DNA of 64,000 nt from an uncultured bacterium (GTDB taxonomy: Bacteria; Nitrospirota; JACRHL01). A program made the position numbers and the translations under genes. The DNA lies in contig CBDUXI010000003.1 of the NCBI GenBank assembly GCA_965371175.1, positions 20,493 through 84,492 of the forward strand. The letters are read 5' to 3'. Below the pieces are notes generated by a model. It was not told where the DNA came from. It was given only the letters and a program-made list of their open reading frames with translations, and ran no database searches. The first letter of the stretch is position 1; each line of letters starts with the position of its first letter. Shown here one piece after another: positions 12,319-43,484 of the stretch.

Positions 12319-12456
12319 CTGCATGAAAAATAACAAATTACCAATCTGAGGCCATTTGACCGATTTCCAACTGCCTCGTATGCTTGAATCTGGTGGTGGT
12401 ATCACCGATAAGAGATATGGGGAGTGGTTTTTCCGCTTGGGGTGGGAGGAGGTTTG

Positions 12457-14199
12457 ATGGCCAATTCACGACCCGGAAAAGGTGGCGCAGGCAGCGAGCA
12501 CACCGTCAGGGACAGCGGTGCCAAGGGCGGCGCGGTCGATTACGAGCGGGAAATCCAGAAGCTGCGGCTTCAGTTGCAGTCCATGGAGTCGGAACTCAGG
12601 CACCTGTTCCCGGTGCGTAACCAGCTCGATCAGGCCTACACCCAGAATCAGAAGCTCGCCAGCGTACTGGAGGAATCCCGCGCCCGGATCGAGGCGTTGC
12701 GGGAAGAGGTGGAAAAGCTCTCCCTGCCCCCCAATCCGTACGGATTTTTCTCCTCCATCAACGACGACGACGGCACCATCAACATCTATGTGTCGGGTCG
12801 CAAGATGAAGGTGCACGTGCACCCGGAAATTGATGTGAACAGCATGCAGCTGGGTCAGGAACTGGTGCTCAACGAGGCGTTTAACGTGGTGGAGGTCAAA
12901 GGCTTCCAGGTGCAGGGCGAGGTGGTGTACGTCAAGGAAGTGCTGGACGACGACCGGGCCATTGTTTCCTTGCGCGCAGATGAAGAGCGGGTGGTGCGCT
13001 TTAGCGAGCGGCTCAAAGCCGAGCACCTGCGGGTGGGCGACCATGTGCTGCTGGACACCCGCTCCGGCTATCTGCTGGAAAAGCTGCCCAAGTGCGAGGC
13101 CGAAGAACTGGTCATCGAGGAAGTGCCCGACGTGGATTACACCCGCATCGGCGGGCTGCGGGATCAGATCGAAGAGATCAAGGACGCGGTGGAGTTGCCG
13201 TTTTTGCACCCGGAACTGTTTCGCGAACATAAGCTTTTGCCCCCCAAGGGGATTTTGCTGTACGGCCCTCCGGGGTGCGGCAAGACCCTGATCGCAAAGG
13301 CTGTGGCCAACGCCATCGCCCAGAAGGTGAGCTCCCAGCCGGATAAGGAGCGGCGCAGCTTCTTCTTGCACATCAAGGGGCCGGAACTGCTGAACAAATA
13401 TGTGGGCGAGTCGGAACGCAAGATCCGCGAGATTTTCCAGAAGGCCAAGGAAAAAGCCGACCGGGGCGTGCCGGTGATCATCTTCTTTGACGAGATGGAC
13501 TCCCTGTTCCGTACCCGTGGTGCGGGTATTTCCTCGGACATGGAATCGACCATCGTGCCCCAGTTTCTGGCCGAAATCGACGGGGTGGAGCGCCTGCGCA
13601 ACGTGATTGTCATTGGTGCCACCAATCGGCAGGATTTGATCGACCCGGCTGTGCTGCGCCCCGGACGGCTGGATATCAAAATCCGGGTGGACCGTCCGGA
13701 CCGGGACGGCGCACGGGATATTTTTCTGAAATATCTCACCACCGATCTGCCGATTCACGCGGGTGCCCGGATCAAAAAAGGGGAAAAACCGGAAAGTGTG
13801 GTGGCCCGCATGATCGATCAGGTGGTGGACGACATGTATGCCGATACCGAGGAAAACGAGTTTCTGGAGGTGACCTACGCCAACGGCGAGCGGGAAGTTT
13901 GCTACTTTAAGGATTTTGCCTCCGGCGCGATGATCGAAGGCATTGTGGCCCGAGCCAAAAAATACGCCATCAAGCGCGCCATCGAAACCGGCGAAAAAGG
14001 GATCAAGGTGGACGATCTGCTCGCGGCCATGCGGCAGGAGTATCGGGAAAACGAGGACCTACCCAACAACACCAACCCGGACGACTGGGCCAAGATTGCC
14101 GGTAAAAAGGGCGAGCGGATCGTCAACATCCGCACCATTATCGACCACGCTCAGAACGGCAAGGAAATCACCCCCGTCTCGGCCGGGCACTACCTCTAG
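12457..14199 (+). CDS. mpa: Proteasome-associated AAA+ ATPase (ARC/Mpa)
   Basis: N-terminal coiled coil, an inter-domain region, one AAA module ([15 protein letters not shown]), and a C-terminus ...GHYL comparable to the actinobacterial GQYL. Start at 12457 has GGAGG at -11. Confidence 0.88.
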
Positions 14200-14233
14200 G
14201 GTTGCCGCCCTAAGGCGCGTGGAAATTTAGATC

Positions 14234-15718
14234 ATGTCTGTTCGCCCCTTTTTTTTTGGCAGTGAAACCGAGTTCGGTATTTCCTGTCTGGACCCGCGCG
14301 AACAGAATCACATTACCAATTCATTGAGGCTGGTCAGCTTTCTGCCCAACCCGGCATCTCCCGATTGCCTGTGGGATTACGAGGGGGAAAACCCTCTCCT
14401 TGATCTGTTCGGCAACCGCATGGACGGGGAGCGGGAAGACCCGGACCCGTATGCCAACCGGTCCCTCAACAAACCGCTGGCCAACGGCGGGCGGCTGTAT
14501 GTGGACGGGGCGCACCCGGAATATTCATCCCCCGAGGTGACCGATCCGCTGGATCTGGTGCGCTACGAGAGCGCAGGCGAGCAGATTGCCGATGCCTGCC
14601 GCAAAAACGCCGACCGGGCGCTGGGGCAGGCCCATTTCTGCCTGCACAAGAACAACTCGGACGGCAAGGGCAACAGCTACGGCTATCACGAAAATTACCT
14701 GGTCCCCAAATCCGTGTCGGTACACGCTCTGATGGAGGCGATCATTCCGTTCTTGATTACCCGCCAGATATTCTGCGGCGCAGGCAAGGTGGGCACCGAG
14801 AACGGGCGGGAAAAAACCCACTATCAACTCTCGCAGCGGGCCGACTTTTTTGAAACCCTGGCCGAACTCAACACCATGGTTAGAAGGCCGTTGTTCAACA
14901 CCCGCAACGAACCCCACGCCGATCCCAAAGAATGGCTGCGCCTGCACGTGATTCCGGCGGATTCCAACATGAGCCAGGTGTCCACCTTCCTGAAAGTGGG
15001 TACCCTGGCCCTGGTGCTGCGTCTGGTGGAAGAAGGGGCGCTGGAAAATGTGCCCCGGATCAAAAAACCGGTGGCGTCGTTCGGGGCGATTTCGCACGAT
15101 CTGACCATCAAAAAACCGGTGGCGATGGACAACGCCGCCCCCATGACCGCAGTGGAGATTCAGCGAATTTATCTGGAGGCGGCAAAAAAATATGCGGACC
15201 AGAATCCGCTGCCCGGCAGCTTTCCGCAAGTGCTTGTGCGCTGGGAGGAATCACTGGATGCTCTGGAGGTCGATCCGTTCGGGCTGTCCCGCACGGCCGA
15301 CTGGGCCATCAAATACCGCATGATTGATACTTATCTGGCGGCGAAAGGGCTGGACTGGAGCGCAGCGCAGGCCAAGGCCATGGACCTTCAGTATCACGAC
15401 ATCAATCCCGAAAAGGGGTTGTACCACACCGTGCGTGCGCGGGGTATGGTGGAGGAACTGGTGACACAGGAGGAAATTTCCGCCGCCATGAGTACGCCGC
15501 CGGAAGATACCCGGGCATGGTTCCGGGGGACGTGTCTTGCCCGGTTTGGCAAAGCGGTTTACGGTGTTAGCTGGGGGTCGGTGCTATTGCATACGGGGGA
15601 GAAGGTGAGTCGCATCCCCACCCTGAACCCGTTTCGGGGGACCAAGGCCATCGCCGGACCTCTTTTGGACAGTTGCTCCACACCGGAGGAACTGATCGAT
15701 AAACTGGAGCAGGGATGA
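14234..15718 (+). CDS. dop: Pup deamidase/depupylase Dop (glutamine-synthetase-like PafA/Dop family)
   Basis: 494 aa. GSETEFG N-terminal motif of the PafA/Dop family. Longer than the downstream paralogue, consistent with the Dop-loop insertion. Position between mpa and pup matches actinobacterial synteny. Confidence 0.75.
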   Translation: MSVRPFFFGSETEFGISCLDPREQNHITNSLRLVSFLPNPASPDCLWDYEGENPLLDLFGNRMDGEREDPDPYANRSLNKPLANGGRLYVDGAHPEYSSPEVTDPLDLVRYESAGEQIADACRKNADRALGQAHFCLHKNNSDGKGNSYGYHENYLVPKSVSVHALMEAIIPFLITRQIFCGAGKVGTENGREKTHYQLSQRADFFETLAELNTMVRRPLFNTRNEPHADPKEWLRLHVIPADSNMSQVSTFLKVGTLALVLRLVEEGALENVPRIKKPVASFGAISHDLTIKKPVAMDNAAPMTAVEIQRIYLEAAKKYADQNPLPGSFPQVLVRWEESLDALEVDPFGLSRTADWAIKYRMIDTYLAAKGLDWSAAQAKAMDLQYHDINPEKGLYHTVRARGMVEELVTQEEISAAMSTPPEDTRAWFRGTCLARFGKAVYGVSWGSVLLHTGEKVSRIPTLNPFRGTKAIAGPLLDSCSTPEELIDKLEQG

Positions 15719-15734
15719 ACAGAGCAGGTAGTCA

Positions 15735-15929
15735 ATGAGCCAGAAGAAAAAAACATCCAGCAAACCGCAGGAAAAAGAGACAGATAAAGAGAGCGCCAAG
15801 GCCTCCGTCACCGAAAAGGGGGAGGAACTTGCCGAGGACATGGACAAACTCATCGATGAGATTGATGATGTGCTCGAAAAGAACGCCGAAGAGTTTGTCA
15901 AAAACTATGTGCAGAAGGGGGGCCAGTGA
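15735..15929 (+). CDS. pup: Prokaryotic ubiquitin-like protein Pup
   Basis: 64 aa, highly acidic and low-complexity. C-terminus ...EEFVKNYVQKGGQ matches the Pup consensus. The stop overlaps the prcB GTG start. Confidence 0.85.
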   Translation: MSQKKKTSSKPQEKETDKESAKASVTEKGEELAEDMDKLIDEIDDVLEKNAEEFVKNYVQKGGQ

Positions 15930-16711
15930 GCCACAACCCGTTCGGTCCCGCACTCGGTTCCAGCTTTTACGATTATCTGGTCGCGGAGCGCCCCGACCTG
16001 CTGCCGATGGCGCGGGTCAGCGCAGGGGATACCGGCACCCTGCCGGTAAACCACGGCACCACGGTGCTGGCCATGACCTATGCCGACGGGGTGGTCGTGG
16101 CCGGTGATCGCATGGCCTCGGACGGCATGTCGGTTTCCAGCCGCCGCATGGACAAGGTGATTGCCGTCGATAATTATTCGGCGGTGGCCATTTCCGGCGC
16201 TGTGGGTCCATGCCTCGAAATGGCCAAGCTGTTTCTGACCGAGCTGGAATATTACGAAAAAATCGAGGGCCGGTCTCTATCTCTGGCGGGCAAGGCCAAC
16301 AAACTGGGGCAGATGGTGCGCGGCAACCTGCCACTGGCCATGCAGGGGCTGGCGGTGATCCCCCTGTTTGCCGGATACGACCTGGAGCGTACCTGCGGCC
16401 GGGTGTTCAAATACGATGCGGCGGGTGGCCGCAACGAAGAGCCGGATTTTGTCACCACCGGCTCCGGTGGCGGACACGCACGGGGGGCGCTCAAAAAAAG
16501 TTTTCAGGAACAGTTGTCCGAGGCGGATGCCGTCAAGGTGGCGCTGGACGCCCTGTTTGACGCGGCGGAAGAAGATCTGGCCACGGCAGGCCCCGATCCG
16601 ATCCGGGGGATTTATCCTTCGGTGCTGGTCATCGACCGGGACGGTATCCGTAACTTGCCCGATGATGACGTGGCGGCCCACTTTCAGGGCGGCCCCAAGG
16701 GGAAACGGTAG
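15926..16711 (+). CDS. prcB: 20S proteasome beta subunit with propeptide
   Basis: Propeptide followed by HG|TTVLAMTY, placing the catalytic Thr1 after autoprocessing. Ntn-hydrolase fold. Confidence 0.88.
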   Translation: MSHNPFGPALGSSFYDYLVAERPDLLPMARVSAGDTGTLPVNHGTTVLAMTYADGVVVAGDRMASDGMSVSSRRMDKVIAVDNYSAVAISGAVGPCLEMAKLFLTELEYYEKIEGRSLSLAGKANKLGQMVRGNLPLAMQGLAVIPLFAGYDLERTCGRVFKYDAAGGRNEEPDFVTTGSGGGHARGALKKSFQEQLSEADAVKVALDALFDAAEEDLATAGPDPIRGIYPSVLVIDRDGIRNLPDDDVAAHFQGGPKGKR

Positions 16712-16713
16712 CC

Positions 16714-17397
16714 ATGTCTGCACCGTACTACGTCTCTCCCGAACAGCTCATGCGCGACAAGGCGGAGTTCGCCAAGGCGGGCATTGCCCGCGGGCGCGCC
16801 ATCGTGGTCATGCGGACGCAGGAGGGCGTCCTGTTTGTGGCCCACAATCCGGGGGTGTCCCTGTACAAGATATCGGAAGTCTACGACCGCATCGGCTTTG
16901 CCGGAGCGGGCAGGTACAGCGAGTTTGAGGCATTAAGGAAAGCCGGGGTGCGCCATGCGGATGTGACCGGCTACAGCTATAGCCGGGAGGACGTGACGGC
17001 CAAATCGCTGGCCAACGGCTATTCCCAGATGCTGGGGGATGCTTTCGCCCGGGAAATAAAGCCCATGGAAGTGGAGCTTGTGGTGGCCGAAGTGTCCGCA
17101 GCCCCTGAAGATGATGAGATCTATCGCATCTCCTTCGACGGTTCCATCTCCGGTGAGGGCCACTTCAGCGTGGTGGGCGGGGATGCCGACCGGGTGCTGG
17201 GGGCACTGTCCAAACAACACAGCCAAGTGGCAGAGATGGGGCCGTCCCTGATCCAGTGCAAAACCGCACTGGAGGCCGGGGGGGAAGATAACCTGACCGC
17301 CGCAGACCTGGAGGTGGGACTGATTGAACGGGGCCGGGCTGGCCGCGCCTTCCGCAGGCTCGATAGCGCAGAGGTTATCGCTCTGCTTTCGGGGTAA
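16714..17397 (+). CDS. prcA: 20S proteasome alpha subunit
   Basis: 227 aa. Proteasome alpha-type sequence (YVSPEQLMRDKAEFA...). Immediately follows prcB. Confidence 0.85.
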   Translation: MSAPYYVSPEQLMRDKAEFAKAGIARGRAIVVMRTQEGVLFVAHNPGVSLYKISEVYDRIGFAGAGRYSEFEALRKAGVRHADVTGYSYSREDVTAKSLANGYSQMLGDAFAREIKPMEVELVVAEVSAAPEDDEIYRISFDGSISGEGHFSVVGGDADRVLGALSKQHSQVAEMGPSLIQCKTALEAGGEDNLTAADLEVGLIERGRAGRAFRRLDSAEVIALLSG

Positions 17398-17402
17398 CCG
17401 CC

Positions 17403-18776
17403 GTGCGCCGCCGAATTCTGGGATTGGAAACGGAATTTGGCCTGACTTTTTTCCCCAGCGGAAAATCGTACCTGCCGATGGAAAAAGTCATCGGCTATCT
17501 GTTTGAAGAAGTCATCCCCACCGGCTGGCCGTCCAATGCCTTTCTGGTCAACGGCGCCCGGTTTTATCAGGACACCGGCTGCCATCCGGAATATGCCACC
17601 CCGGAGTGCGCCACGGTCAAGAGCGTGGTGGCCCACGACAAGGCGGGAGAGCGGCTGCTGGAGTCGCGTCTGGCTCCGGCCCAGGCCCGGCTGGCCGAAG
17701 AGGGGTTTGTGGGCACCCTGTACGCCTATAAAAACAACACCGATACCATGGGCAACACCTACGGCTGCCACGAAAATTATCTGGTGGACCGCAAGCTCGA
17801 TTTCTGGCGGCTGGCGGAGCATATGATTCCGTATTTTGTCACCCGCCAGATGTATACCGGCGCGGGCAAGGTATACAAGGCGGCGGGCCAGAGTGGCTTT
17901 GCCATTTCCCAGCGGGCCGTCCATATTCACGAGGCATCCTCCTCCTCCACCACCAGCTCGCGCAGCATCATCAACACCCGGGACGAGCCCCACGCCGACG
18001 CGGAGCGGTTCCGGCGGCTGCACATCATTGCGGGCGACTCCAACATGAGCGAGTACACCACCTACCTGAAAATGGGCATCACCAGCGTGCTGCTCACCGC
18101 CATGGAGGAGGGGGCCATGTTTCCCATCCTCACGCTGGACGATCCGGTGGATGCCCTGCGCCAGGTTTCTGTGGACCTGCGGATGAAACAGCCGCTACTG
18201 CTTGCCAGCGGCGGAAAGATGACCGCTCTGGAGATACAGTGGGCCTACCTGGAGGCGGCGGAGCGGCATTTTTCCACTTTGGAAAAAGGGGTGTTCCGCA
18301 ACCTGCTGACCCAGTGGCGGGAAGTACTGGATGCGCTGGAGACCAATCCGAAACAGCTGGCCGACCGGGTGGACTGGATCGCCAAGCGGGAGTTGATGCG
18401 CGCCTTCATGCGGCGGGACGGGTGCGACTGGTCCGACCCGCGCATTGCCATGATTGATTTGCAATACCACGATATCGACCGCAGCCGGGGGCTGTACTAC
18501 CTGCTGGAGCGGGACAAAAAAATGGTGCGGGTGGTTGCCGAGTCCGAGGTGACCCGCGCCCTTCACCACCCCCCTGCCGACACCCGCGCCCACATCCGCG
18601 GGCAGTTTATCCGCTTTGCCAAGGAGGCGGGCCGCCCGTACAGCGTGGACTGGACCTACCTGAAGCTGTCCGGTTATTTCGAGGAGACAATCCTCTGCAC
18701 CGACCCGTTTGTCAGCCGCGACCCACGGGTGGAAGAGCTGGTCACCACCGCCACCGGTGATTTGTACGATATTTAA
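17403..18776 (+). CDS. pafA: Pup--protein ligase PafA
   Basis: 457 aa. LGLETEFG motif. Paralogue of the dop product but shorter (no Dop loop). GTG start. Confidence 0.78.
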   Translation: MRRRILGLETEFGLTFFPSGKSYLPMEKVIGYLFEEVIPTGWPSNAFLVNGARFYQDTGCHPEYATPECATVKSVVAHDKAGERLLESRLAPAQARLAEEGFVGTLYAYKNNTDTMGNTYGCHENYLVDRKLDFWRLAEHMIPYFVTRQMYTGAGKVYKAAGQSGFAISQRAVHIHEASSSSTTSSRSIINTRDEPHADAERFRRLHIIAGDSNMSEYTTYLKMGITSVLLTAMEEGAMFPILTLDDPVDALRQVSVDLRMKQPLLLASGGKMTALEIQWAYLEAAERHFSTLEKGVFRNLLTQWREVLDALETNPKQLADRVDWIAKRELMRAFMRRDGCDWSDPRIAMIDLQYHDIDRSRGLYYLLERDKKMVRVVAESEVTRALHHPPADTRAHIRGQFIRFAKEAGRPYSVDWTYLKLSGYFEETILCTDPFVSRDPRVEELVTTATGDLYDI

Positions 18777-35175: not shown

Positions 35176-35252
35176 TGGTAGCGGCGCAGGGATTCGAACC
35201 CCGGACACGCGGATTATGATTCCGCTGCTCTAACCAACTGAGCTACGCCGCC
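35176..35252 (-). tRNA. tRNA-Met (anticodon CAT; elongator-like, or possibly Ile-lysidine type)
   Basis: The reverse complement folds as a cloverleaf: GGCGGCGTAGCTCAGTTGGTTAGAGCAGCGGAATCATAATCCGCGTGTCCGGGGTTCGAATCCCTGCGCCGCTACCA. It has a 7/7 acceptor stem, a CAT anticodon in a 7-nt loop, TTCGAATCC in the T-arm, and an encoded CCA. Confidence 0.85.
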
Positions 35253-43114: not shown

Positions 43115-43484
43115 TTCTTCATTCTACACCCGGCCGACCGTTCTACATTTGGCTATTGCGGACCCGTGGGTTTCCCCGGACAGGGCAACGAATTTCCCAC
43201 CTTGGGGTGGGGCAGGGGATGCATCACCGAACCGCTTTGCCCCAGCCCCGGCATCGAATCGTAAAAAAACAATATAAAACAATGTATTAACCGCATCGTC
43301 AAAAAAATGACAAAGCGGCACGGGGCTTGCTACATACCCTCCCTGGTAACACGTTTGTTTGTGGACCCATTCTGTCCGGGCAACCCGTTCGCGAGGACGG
43401 CACGCAAAGGATACGGGTCTCCACCCGATTGGGGGAGGAGACGGCTGACCTGCCAGTTAAGTCCGCGCTGTTGGAGTTGTATCC

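What the first reader, a model, noticed from the sequence alone, without database searches (positions are those of the whole stretch)
15735..15929. Pup ends in GGQ and its stop overlaps the prcB start
The C-terminal Gln implies the ligase needs Dop-mediated deamidation to GGE, as in Mycobacterium. Many non-actinobacterial Pup homologues instead encode GGE directly. The GTGA overlap with prcB suggests Pup and the protease are made in coupled stoichiometry.
Basis: partly seen in the sequence, partly recalled or inferred. Interest (0 to 1): 0.55.

Follow-up and report, generated by a model that had tools for sequence, protein, structure and literature searches.

The report
Ordinary Pup gene in proteasome operon
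This is a normal gene for Pup, the bacterial ubiquitin-like tag. It sits in a complete, classically ordered Pup-proteasome operon of a Nitrospirota-type bacterium, and both its Gln ending and its 4-base overlap with the proteasome beta-subunit gene are known, recurrent features.

Summary
Window 15735..15929 (+) encodes a 64-aa Pup (Pfam PF05639 E 2.8e-22; TIGR03687 above its cutoff) ending ...YVQKGGQ. Its CAG-TGA end overlaps the only usable prcB start (GTG 15926) by four bases (GTGA). The gene lies in a compact mpa-dop-pup-prcB-prcA-pafA cluster, and its nearest relatives are Nitrospirota/Leptospirillia MAGs with identical synteny. Two independent assemblies carry the same CAG codon, so it is not a sequencing error.

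A Dop orthologue lies 16 nt upstream. It has the Dop-specific N-terminal segment, and the Asp-containing RLYVD-AHPEY motif aligns with a solved Dop. The inferred route PupQ -> Dop deamidation -> PafA ligation is therefore the textbook one.

The Q/E ending is not a phylum marker. It flips between otherwise identical Pups, and both states occur inside and outside Actinomycetota. The GTGA overlap recurs in Acidimicrobiia/Actinomycetota MAGs with either ending, but one close relative lacks it. prcB has a strong Shine-Dalgarno match made by Pup's own Lys-Gly-Gly codons. Translational coupling is plausible; "coupled stoichiometry" is over-read.

Verdict: a new member of a known kind, of low interest.

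The parts
12424..14199 (+). mpa/arc, the proteasomal AAA+ ATPase (C-terminus ...GHYL). The real start is more likely ATG 12457.
   Evidence: TIGR03689 744.7 bits (cutoff 504.75); Pfam Prot_ATP_ID_OB_N/C plus AAA. The SD upstream of ATG 12457 pairs at -12.8 kcal/mol, against -5.5 for GTG 12424.
14234..15718 (+). dop, the Pup deamidase/depupylase.
   Evidence: TIGR03688 486.3 bits (cutoff 492.3, marginally below), against 355.3 bits on the PafA model. Best solved relatives are Acidothermus Dop 5lrt/4b0r, E 4e-130. The alignment runs through the N-terminal segment that PafA lacks, and RLYVDGAHPEY aligns with RLYVDHAHPEY.
15735..15929 (+). pup, the 64-aa prokaryotic ubiquitin-like protein ending in GGQ (PupQ form).
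   Evidence: PF05639 E 2.8e-22; TIGR03687 65.6 bits. Aligns to Mtb Pup chains 7px9_G and 3m9d_G. 484 homologues found.
15915..15929 (+). Junction AAG GGG GGC CAG TGA. The Lys-Gly-Gly codons form an SD-like AAGGGGGG, 3 nt before the prcB GTG, which overlaps the pup stop (GTGA).
   Evidence: Sequence read directly. The anti-SD duplex is -11.3 kcal/mol, against a window background of -3.6 +/- 2.6.
15926..16711 (+). prcB, the 20S proteasome beta subunit with a 44-aa propeptide; catalytic Thr1 is Thr45 (NHG|TTVLAM).
   Evidence: TIGR03690 282.6 bits (cutoff 191.9). Mature PDB chains 1q5q_H and 2fhg_H begin at query residue 45, and propeptide homology starts at residue 6.
16714..17397 (+). prcA, the 20S proteasome alpha subunit.
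   Evidence: TIGR03691 283 bits (cutoff 139.05).
17403..18776 (+). pafA, the Pup-protein ligase.
   Evidence: TIGR03686 534 bits (cutoff 551.3, marginally below), against 394.6 bits on the Dop model. The best solved relative is C. glutamicum PafA 4b0t, E 4e-97, full length.

Best explanation
The ORF is a genuine pup gene of the PupQ type. It is embedded in a single, compact Pup-proteasome operon (mpa-dop-pup-prcB-prcA-pafA) of a Nitrospirota (Leptospirillia-like) bacterium.

How it most likely works:
1. Pup is translated with a C-terminal Gln.
2. Dop, encoded 16 nt upstream, deamidates the Gln to Glu.
3. PafA phosphorylates the Glu gamma-carboxylate and ligates it to substrate lysines.
4. Mpa binds Pup and feeds the substrates to the PrcAB core.
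5. Dop also removes Pup from substrates.

prcB is translated from GTG 15926. It uses a Shine-Dalgarno-like AAGGGGGG formed by Pup's invariant Lys-Gly-Gly codons, and/or reinitiation by ribosomes terminating at the overlapping TGA.

Shown here: the gene identities, their order, the GGQ ending, the overlap, the SD and the conservation across relatives. Inferred from work on homologues: the deamidation, ligation and degradation chemistry, and the translational coupling.
For: - Family assignments for all six genes.
- The Dop/PafA paralogues are told apart by model scores and by their best solved relatives.
- The Pup C-terminal half is near-identical to Mtb Pup.
- Intergenic gaps are at most 34 nt, and no terminator-like site falls in a gap. 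A promoter-like site lies at 12356-12384, just upstream of mpa.
- Close relatives L083-L090 share the same synteny, including the thiSGE and cytochrome c flanks.
- The GTGA junction is kept in L085/86, L089/90 and L087/88. It is also present in nine of the genome loci L003-L082: eight Acidimicrobiia/Actinomycetota MAGs and one Methylomirabilales MAG, L079.
- The prcB SD pairs at -11.3 kcal/mol.
- Literature: Pup ends in GGQ or GGE depending on species; Dop deamidates PupQ; PafA requires PupE; the gene order is rigidly conserved; Nitrospirae carry the system (PMC3511204, PMC7947786, PMC8223512).
Against: - There are no expression or biochemical data for this organism.
- Dop and PafA score slightly below NCBIfam's curated equivalog cutoffs (486 against 492, and 534 against 551), which reflects divergence from the actinobacterial training set.
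- The overlap is absent in one close relative (L083: TAA stop, prcB GTG 20 nt downstream), so coupling by overlap is not essential.
- In L087/88 an ATG 3 nt after the stop is an alternative prcB start.
Confidence: 0.9

Rival explanations
1. The terminal Gln is an assembly or sequencing artefact, and the real protein ends in GGE.
For: CAG and GAG differ by one base. Close relatives with GGE exist: P0006 and P0008-P0011.
Against: Two independent assemblies (ENA ERZ25073594 and Logan SRR22302347) encode the identical 64-aa protein with CAG. They differ from the window at a neighbouring synonymous site. The next relatives P0001-P0005 and P0007 also end in GGQ.
Confidence: 0.02
2. The GTGA overlap is incidental operon compaction. 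prcB is translated independently from its own SD, with no functional coupling to pup translation and no stoichiometric meaning.
For: The SD upstream of prcB is strong (-11.3 kcal/mol). L083 has lost the overlap while keeping the operon. Roughly two thirds of prcB-adjacent genome loci have short gaps instead of an overlap. From general knowledge, 4-nt overlaps are the commonest overlap class in bacterial operons.
Against: The junction motif SAG-TGA-GCC is conserved from Acidimicrobiia MAGs to this Nitrospirota clade, with either the Q or the E ending. That argues for some retention. The SD sits only 3-4 nt from the start, which is shorter than optimal and favours a contribution from terminating ribosomes.
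Confidence: 0.4
3. The small ORF is not expressed, and the real product lies on the opposite strand (ORFs 15732..15953 or 15584..15901, minus strand).
For: Both antisense ORFs are listed mechanically.
Against: The plus-strand product matches the Pup family at E 2.8e-22, has 484 homologues, and sits in a conserved operon position. Long antisense ORFs are expected by chance in 61% GC DNA.
Confidence: 0.01

Closest known systems
Mycobacterium tuberculosis Pup (PupQ) with Dop, PafA, Mpa and PrcBA
   Same: 64 aa, ending YVQKGGQ. The C-terminal 28 residues are nearly identical. dop lies directly upstream and prcB-prcA directly downstream. The PrcB propeptide carries the SF.D(Y/F)L...PELLP motif. From memory, not tested here, the Mtb pup/prcB pair also overlaps by GTGA.
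   Different: The host is a Nitrospirota-type bacterium. The N-terminal half is Lys-rich rather than Gly/Asp-rich. pafA follows prcA directly, and mpa precedes dop directly, in one cluster. Enzyme identity to actinobacterial homologues is only about 40-60%.
Leptospirillum (Nitrospirae) Pup-proteasome loci described by De Mot 2007, Iyer et al. 2008 and Barandun et al. 2012
   Same: A non-actinobacterial host carrying the complete, canonically ordered locus. The nearest named relatives of the window's Pup are Nitrospirota and Leptospirillia MAGs. The literature proposes horizontal acquisition from Acidimicrobiales-like Actinobacteria (PMC3511204).
   Different: Only one copy is present in this 64-kb window, whereas L. 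ferrooxidans is reported to have two copies of the system. This lineage is known only from metagenome assemblies.
PupE-type loci such as Corynebacterium glutamicum, and the GGE relatives P0006 and P0009 (L087)
   Same: The same Pup family with the same conserved C-terminal helix. dop is retained in L087 as a 494-aa gene.
   Different: The terminal Glu is encoded directly, so no deamidation step is needed before ligation.
Acidimicrobiia/Actinomycetota MAG loci L007, L025, L042, L049, L054, L066, L068, L069
   Same: The same GTGA pup-stop/prcB-start overlap, and a prcB that starts Val-Ser-(His/Arg) from GTGAGCC.
   Different: 40-60% protein identity to the window's enzymes, and both Q and E endings.

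Membership tests
Pup (PF05639 / TIGR03687) | Profile match above the curated cutoffs | tested here: met
   PF05639 79.8 bits (cutoff 27); TIGR03687 65.6 bits (cutoff 41.45).
Pup (PF05639 / TIGR03687) | Small protein of 60-70 aa with a C-terminal Gly-Gly-Gln/Glu | tested here: met
   64 aa ending KGGQ. In 121 homologues the last three positions are G, G and E (86) or Q (35) only.
Pup (PF05639 / TIGR03687) | Conserved Mpa- and PafA-binding C-terminal helix region | tested here: met
   Residues 37-64 align to the Pup chains solved with Mpa, Dop and PafA (7px9_G, 3m9d_G, 7oxy_B, 4bjr_A). 16 invariant columns are shared. This is sequence-level evidence only.
Pup (PF05639 / TIGR03687) | Genomic linkage to dop, pafA, mpa and prcBA | tested here: met
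   mpa-dop-pup-prcB-prcA-pafA are contiguous at 12424-18776.
Pup (PF05639 / TIGR03687) | Covalent conjugation to substrate lysines through the terminal Glu side chain | not testable with these tools
   Requires biochemistry or proteomics.
Dop (TIGR03688) | Equivalog model score above the cutoff, and higher than on the PafA model | tested here: inconclusive
   486.3 bits against a cutoff of 492.3 (6 bits short), but 131 bits above the PafA model.
Dop (TIGR03688) | Dop-specific N-terminal segment and the Asp-containing YVD motif | tested here: met
   Alignment to Acidothermus Dop 5lrt runs through query residues 8-104 with only small gaps, and RLYVDGAHPEY aligns with RLYVDHAHPEY. PafA chains align only from query residue 77 / chain residue 50. 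That the Asp of this motif is the catalytic residue comes from the literature, not from this test.
Dop (TIGR03688) | Deamidase activity on PupQ | not testable with these tools
   Requires an enzyme assay.
PafA (TIGR03686) | Equivalog model score above the cutoff, and higher than on the Dop model | tested here: inconclusive
   534 bits against a cutoff of 551.3, but 139 bits above the Dop model. The best solved relative is C. glutamicum PafA, aligned over its full length.
Translationally coupled gene pair | Same strand, with stop and start overlapping or abutting | tested here: met
   GTGA at 15926-15929.
Translationally coupled gene pair | Arrangement conserved among relatives | tested here: inconclusive
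   Kept in 3 of the 4 closest other lineages (L085/86, L087/88, L089/90) and lost in L083. Also present in nine of the genome loci L003-L082: eight Actinomycetota MAGs and L079. About two thirds of prcB-adjacent loci lack it.
Translationally coupled gene pair | Downstream translation depends on upstream translation | not testable with these tools
   Requires a reporter or nonsense-polarity experiment.

The most novel reading that the evidence does not exclude
The terminal Gln/Glu of Pup may be an unusually fast-flipping switch rather than a lineage trait. Pups that are otherwise up to 100% identical differ only in Q versus E, including within this window's narrow Nitrospirota clade. Meanwhile 14 of the last 20 positions are invariant. 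If the flips are adaptive (switching a Dop-gated activation step on and off) rather than neutral, dense metagenomic sampling of such clades would make the long-standing question 'why encode PupQ at all?' testable by comparative genomics.

A still more speculative reading is also not excluded, though nothing supports it. The G6-G7 run at the junction, with prcB lying in the -1 frame of pup, could allow a low level of Pup-PrcB frameshift fusion.
Probability: 0.12. Interest if true: 0.4.

Novelty: new member of a known kind. Interest (0 to 1): 0.12.

Why it matters
It matters little beyond correct annotation. The window carries a complete, canonical Pup-proteasome system in a Nitrospirota-type lineage known only from metagenomes. 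This adds one more example of the system outside Actinomycetota.

Two small by-products may be useful:
- The Q/E ending is evolutionarily very labile and should not be used as a taxonomic or mechanistic marker of 'Mycobacterium-like' systems.
- Pup's invariant Lys-Gly-Gly codons double as the ribosome-binding site of prcB wherever the two genes abut.

Tried and rejected
- Two literature searches looked for an explicit statement that pup and prcB overlap, or are translationally coupled, in mycobacteria. The word 'overlap' in those papers referred to other things. The Mtb GTGA overlap therefore rests on my memory only.
- My naive string test for GTGA/ATGA next to prcB wrongly flagged L003, L023 and L074, where the prcB frame is different. 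It also missed L069. The frame-aware analysis is the one to trust.
- I looked for a second copy of the system in the window, as reported for Leptospirillum ferrooxidans. There is none.
- I considered Gly-codon choice at the GG motif as evidence for selection on the SD. I rejected it: there are too few codons, and 'orphan' Nitrospira pups with no downstream prcB also use GGG/GGA.
- I did not pursue a specific donor lineage for horizontal transfer. Identities to Acidimicrobiia, Myxococcota and other Nitrospirota loci are all similar, at 40-60%.
- The terminator and promoter scans are near chance level (14 found against 8.9 +/- 3.0 expected, and 5 against 2.3 +/- 1.6). I used them only to note that no site falls in an intergenic gap.

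Full report
**Observation**

The stretch 15735..15929 on the + strand is an ATG-initiated ORF of 64 codons. It encodes MSQKKKTSSKPQEKETDKESAKASVTEKGEELAEDMDKLIDEIDDVLEKNAEEFVKNYVQKGGQ. Its last codons read AAG GGG GGC CAG TGA. A 261-codon ORF starts at GTG 15926, so stop and start share GTGA.

The ORF is not a chance ORF. It matches Pfam Pup (PF05639) at E 2.8e-22 and NCBIfam TIGR03687 at 65.6 bits against a cutoff of 41.45. It has 484 homologues at E <= 1e-3 in the large protein collection, and every one of the 120 listed carries PF05639. Its C-terminal 48 residues align to the M. tuberculosis Pup chains solved in complex with Mpa and the proteasome. The antisense ORFs listed over the same stretch are what 61% GC DNA produces by chance.

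**Surroundings**

Six genes lie head to tail on the + strand:
- mpa/arc, 12424-14199: TIGR03689 745 bits; ends ...GHYL.
- dop, 14234-15718.
- pup, 15735-15929.
- prcB, 15926-16711: TIGR03690 283 bits.
- prcA, 16714-17397: TIGR03691 283 bits.
- pafA, 17403-18776.

The gaps are 34, 16, -4, 2 and 5 nt. None of the terminator-like hits falls in a gap. The next gene downstream is convergent. A promoter-like site (TTGACC-17-TATGCT) lies at 12356-12384, in the only sizeable intergenic region, upstream of mpa. These scans are close to chance level, so they are only suggestive.

The two Pup-ligase-family paralogues can be told apart:
- The upstream one scores 486 bits on the Dop model and 355 bits on the PafA model. 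Its best solved relatives are Acidothermus Dop (5lrt/4b0r, E 4e-130) and M. tuberculosis Dop. The alignment runs through the N-terminal segment that PafA lacks, and RLYVDGAHPEY matches RLYVDHAHPEY.
- The downstream one scores 534 bits on the PafA model and 395 bits on the Dop model. It aligns over its full length to C. glutamicum PafA.

Both fall a few bits short of NCBIfam's curated equivalog cutoffs. I attribute this to divergence from the mostly actinobacterial seed sequences.

PrcB has a 44-residue propeptide and the catalytic Thr at position 45. Mature chains in the PDB begin there.

**Is GTG 15926 the real prcB start?**

In this frame the only start codon upstream of the conserved propeptide is that GTG. 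The next candidates lie 71 and 77 nt downstream of the pup stop (read on L001, a 98-99% identical copy of the locus). Homology to the Rhodococcus PrcB1 propeptide begins at residue 6. Relatives share the N-terminus: VSHNPFGP..., VTSNPFSP..., VKHDPFAP..., VSMDPFSP.... So the overlap is real.

The 20 nt before the GTG pair with a generic anti-Shine-Dalgarno tail at -11.3 kcal/mol. This is the second strongest site I scored (nine candidate starts around the cluster); only the site upstream of ATG 12457, at -12.8, is stronger. The window background is -3.6 +/- 2.6. The pairing element is AAGGGGGG, which is Pup's Lys-Gly-Gly codons. It ends 3 nt before the start.

**Whose genome is it?**

The nearest Pups are named by NCBI as Nitrospirota bacterium and Leptospirillia bacterium MAGs. 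The exact protein occurs only in two metagenome assemblies. Contigs of the nearest relatives share the whole neighbourhood, thiS-thiG-thiE-mpa-dop-pup-prcB-prcA-pafA-cytochrome c-...-birA, which is also the window's arrangement. The pupylation system of Nitrospirae, its canonical gene order and its proposed horizontal origin from Actinobacteria are in the literature (PMC3511204; PMC7947786).

**The GGQ ending**

A sequencing error is very unlikely. L001 and L002 encode the same protein with CAG, while carrying GGG instead of GGC in the neighbouring codon.

GGQ is not a deep trait:
- Among the 120 nearest Pup clusters, 86 end in GGE and 34 in GGQ.
- In the window's own clade, P0001-P0005 and P0007 end in Q, and P0006 and P0008-P0011 end in E.
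- P0036 (Q) and P0058 (E) are identical apart from the last residue.
- 30 of 121 nearest-neighbour pairs disagree in the last residue. Random assortment would give 41%.
- 14 of the last 20 positions are invariant, yet the last one is E or Q and nothing else.

Among 80 genome loci with organism labels, Actinomycetota are 11 Q / 7 E. Non-actinobacterial loci with prcB next door are 6 Q / 6 E. The large excess of E outside Actinomycetota (52 against 10) comes from Nitrospira-type pups that are not next to any pupylation gene.

The GGE relative L087 keeps a full-length dop. That fits Dop's second role as depupylase (PMC3511204). The reviews already state that Pup ends in GGQ or GGE depending on species, and that PupQ must be deamidated by Dop before PafA can use it (PMC3511204, PMC8223512, PMC7947786).

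**The overlap**

An in-frame GTG at -4 occurs in the window and L001, and in the following relatives:
- L085/86 and L089/90, which end in GGQ.
- L087/88, which end in GGE and have an alternative ATG at +3.
- Eight Acidimicrobiia/Actinomycetota MAG loci: L007, L025, L042, L049, L054, L066, L068 and L069, with either ending. Several of them share the junction motif GTGAGCC with the window.
- One Methylomirabilales locus, L079.

It is absent from L083, a close relative with a TAA stop and a prcB start 20 nt later. It is also absent from roughly two thirds of prcB-adjacent loci, which have short gaps instead. The overlap is therefore a recurrent arrangement, probably inherited with the locus, and it is independent of the Q/E state. 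It is compatible with termination-reinitiation coupling, but prcB also has its own strong SD. Nothing here supports a fixed Pup:proteasome ratio.

**Mechanism (inferred from homologues, not shown here)**

PupQ is made. Dop converts the terminal Gln to Glu. PafA activates the gamma-carboxylate with ATP and joins it to substrate lysines. Mpa binds Pup and feeds the substrates to PrcAB. Dop can also remove Pup.

**Comparison and novelty**

This is a member of the Pup family in every testable respect, and the locus is a canonical Pup-proteasome system. The closest well-studied analogue is the M. tuberculosis system, which has the same PupQ ending and the same dop-pup-prcBA order. The closest described non-actinobacterial examples are the Leptospirillum loci. 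I rate it a new member of a known kind and of low interest.

The only mildly new points are the very high lability of the terminal Q/E among near-identical Pups, and the observation that the KGG codons supply the prcB ribosome-binding site.

Noticed in passing
L004-L012, L014, L015, L018-L020, L022, L024, L026-L034, L036, L038, L044, L045, L048, L050 and others (genome loci): Nitrospira/Nitrospiraceae genomes carry a pup gene, almost always ending in GGE with a TAA/TAG stop, that has no mpa, dop, prcB, prcA or pafA within +/-4 kb. In L048 (a complete chromosome, OZ252033.1) and in L011 it sits between an H+-pyrophosphatase gene and recJ. Several Methylomirabilota/Rokubacteria loci behave the same way. 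I did not determine where the ligase and proteasome genes of these genomes lie, or whether they exist.
   Followed up: partly
window 12424-12459: The mechanically listed mpa ORF starts at GTG 12424. ATG 12457 (MANSRPG...) is preceded by a much stronger Shine-Dalgarno match (GGGAGGAGG, -12.8 against -5.5 kcal/mol) and is probably the true start.
   Followed up: partly
window 43369-43457 (+): A match to the c-di-GMP-I riboswitch aptamer (RF01051) at 35.6 bits, just above the gathering score of 35. Its downstream gene was not examined.
   Followed up: no
window 35179-35252 (-): A single tRNA gene (RF00005, 66.4 bits). The anticodon was not determined.
   Followed up: no
window 15917-15926; L001 3038-3047: The pup/prcB junction holds a run of six G (seven in L001, L002, L085 and L087). 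prcB lies in the -1 frame of pup, and that frame is open for about 57 nt upstream of the GTG. A -1 slip on the G run would therefore fuse Pup(1-62) to the PrcB propeptide. There is no evidence that this happens, and the run is forced by the Gly-Gly codons.
   Followed up: no
window 15735-15830: The N-terminal half of this Pup and of its close relatives is Lys-rich (8 Lys in the first 28 residues; 12 in all). The Mtb Pup N-terminus is Gly/Asp-rich instead. Whether this affects Pup self-pupylation or engagement by Mpa is unknown.
   Followed up: no
L039 (contig CAZPDF010000006.1, labelled Candidatus Saccharibacteria): A proteasome-less arrangement. mpa is present, followed by a GGE pup and then a distant Pup-ligase-family gene (about 31% identity to the window's PafA). 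No prcBA is present in the locus. The taxonomic label of this MAG may be unreliable.
   Followed up: no
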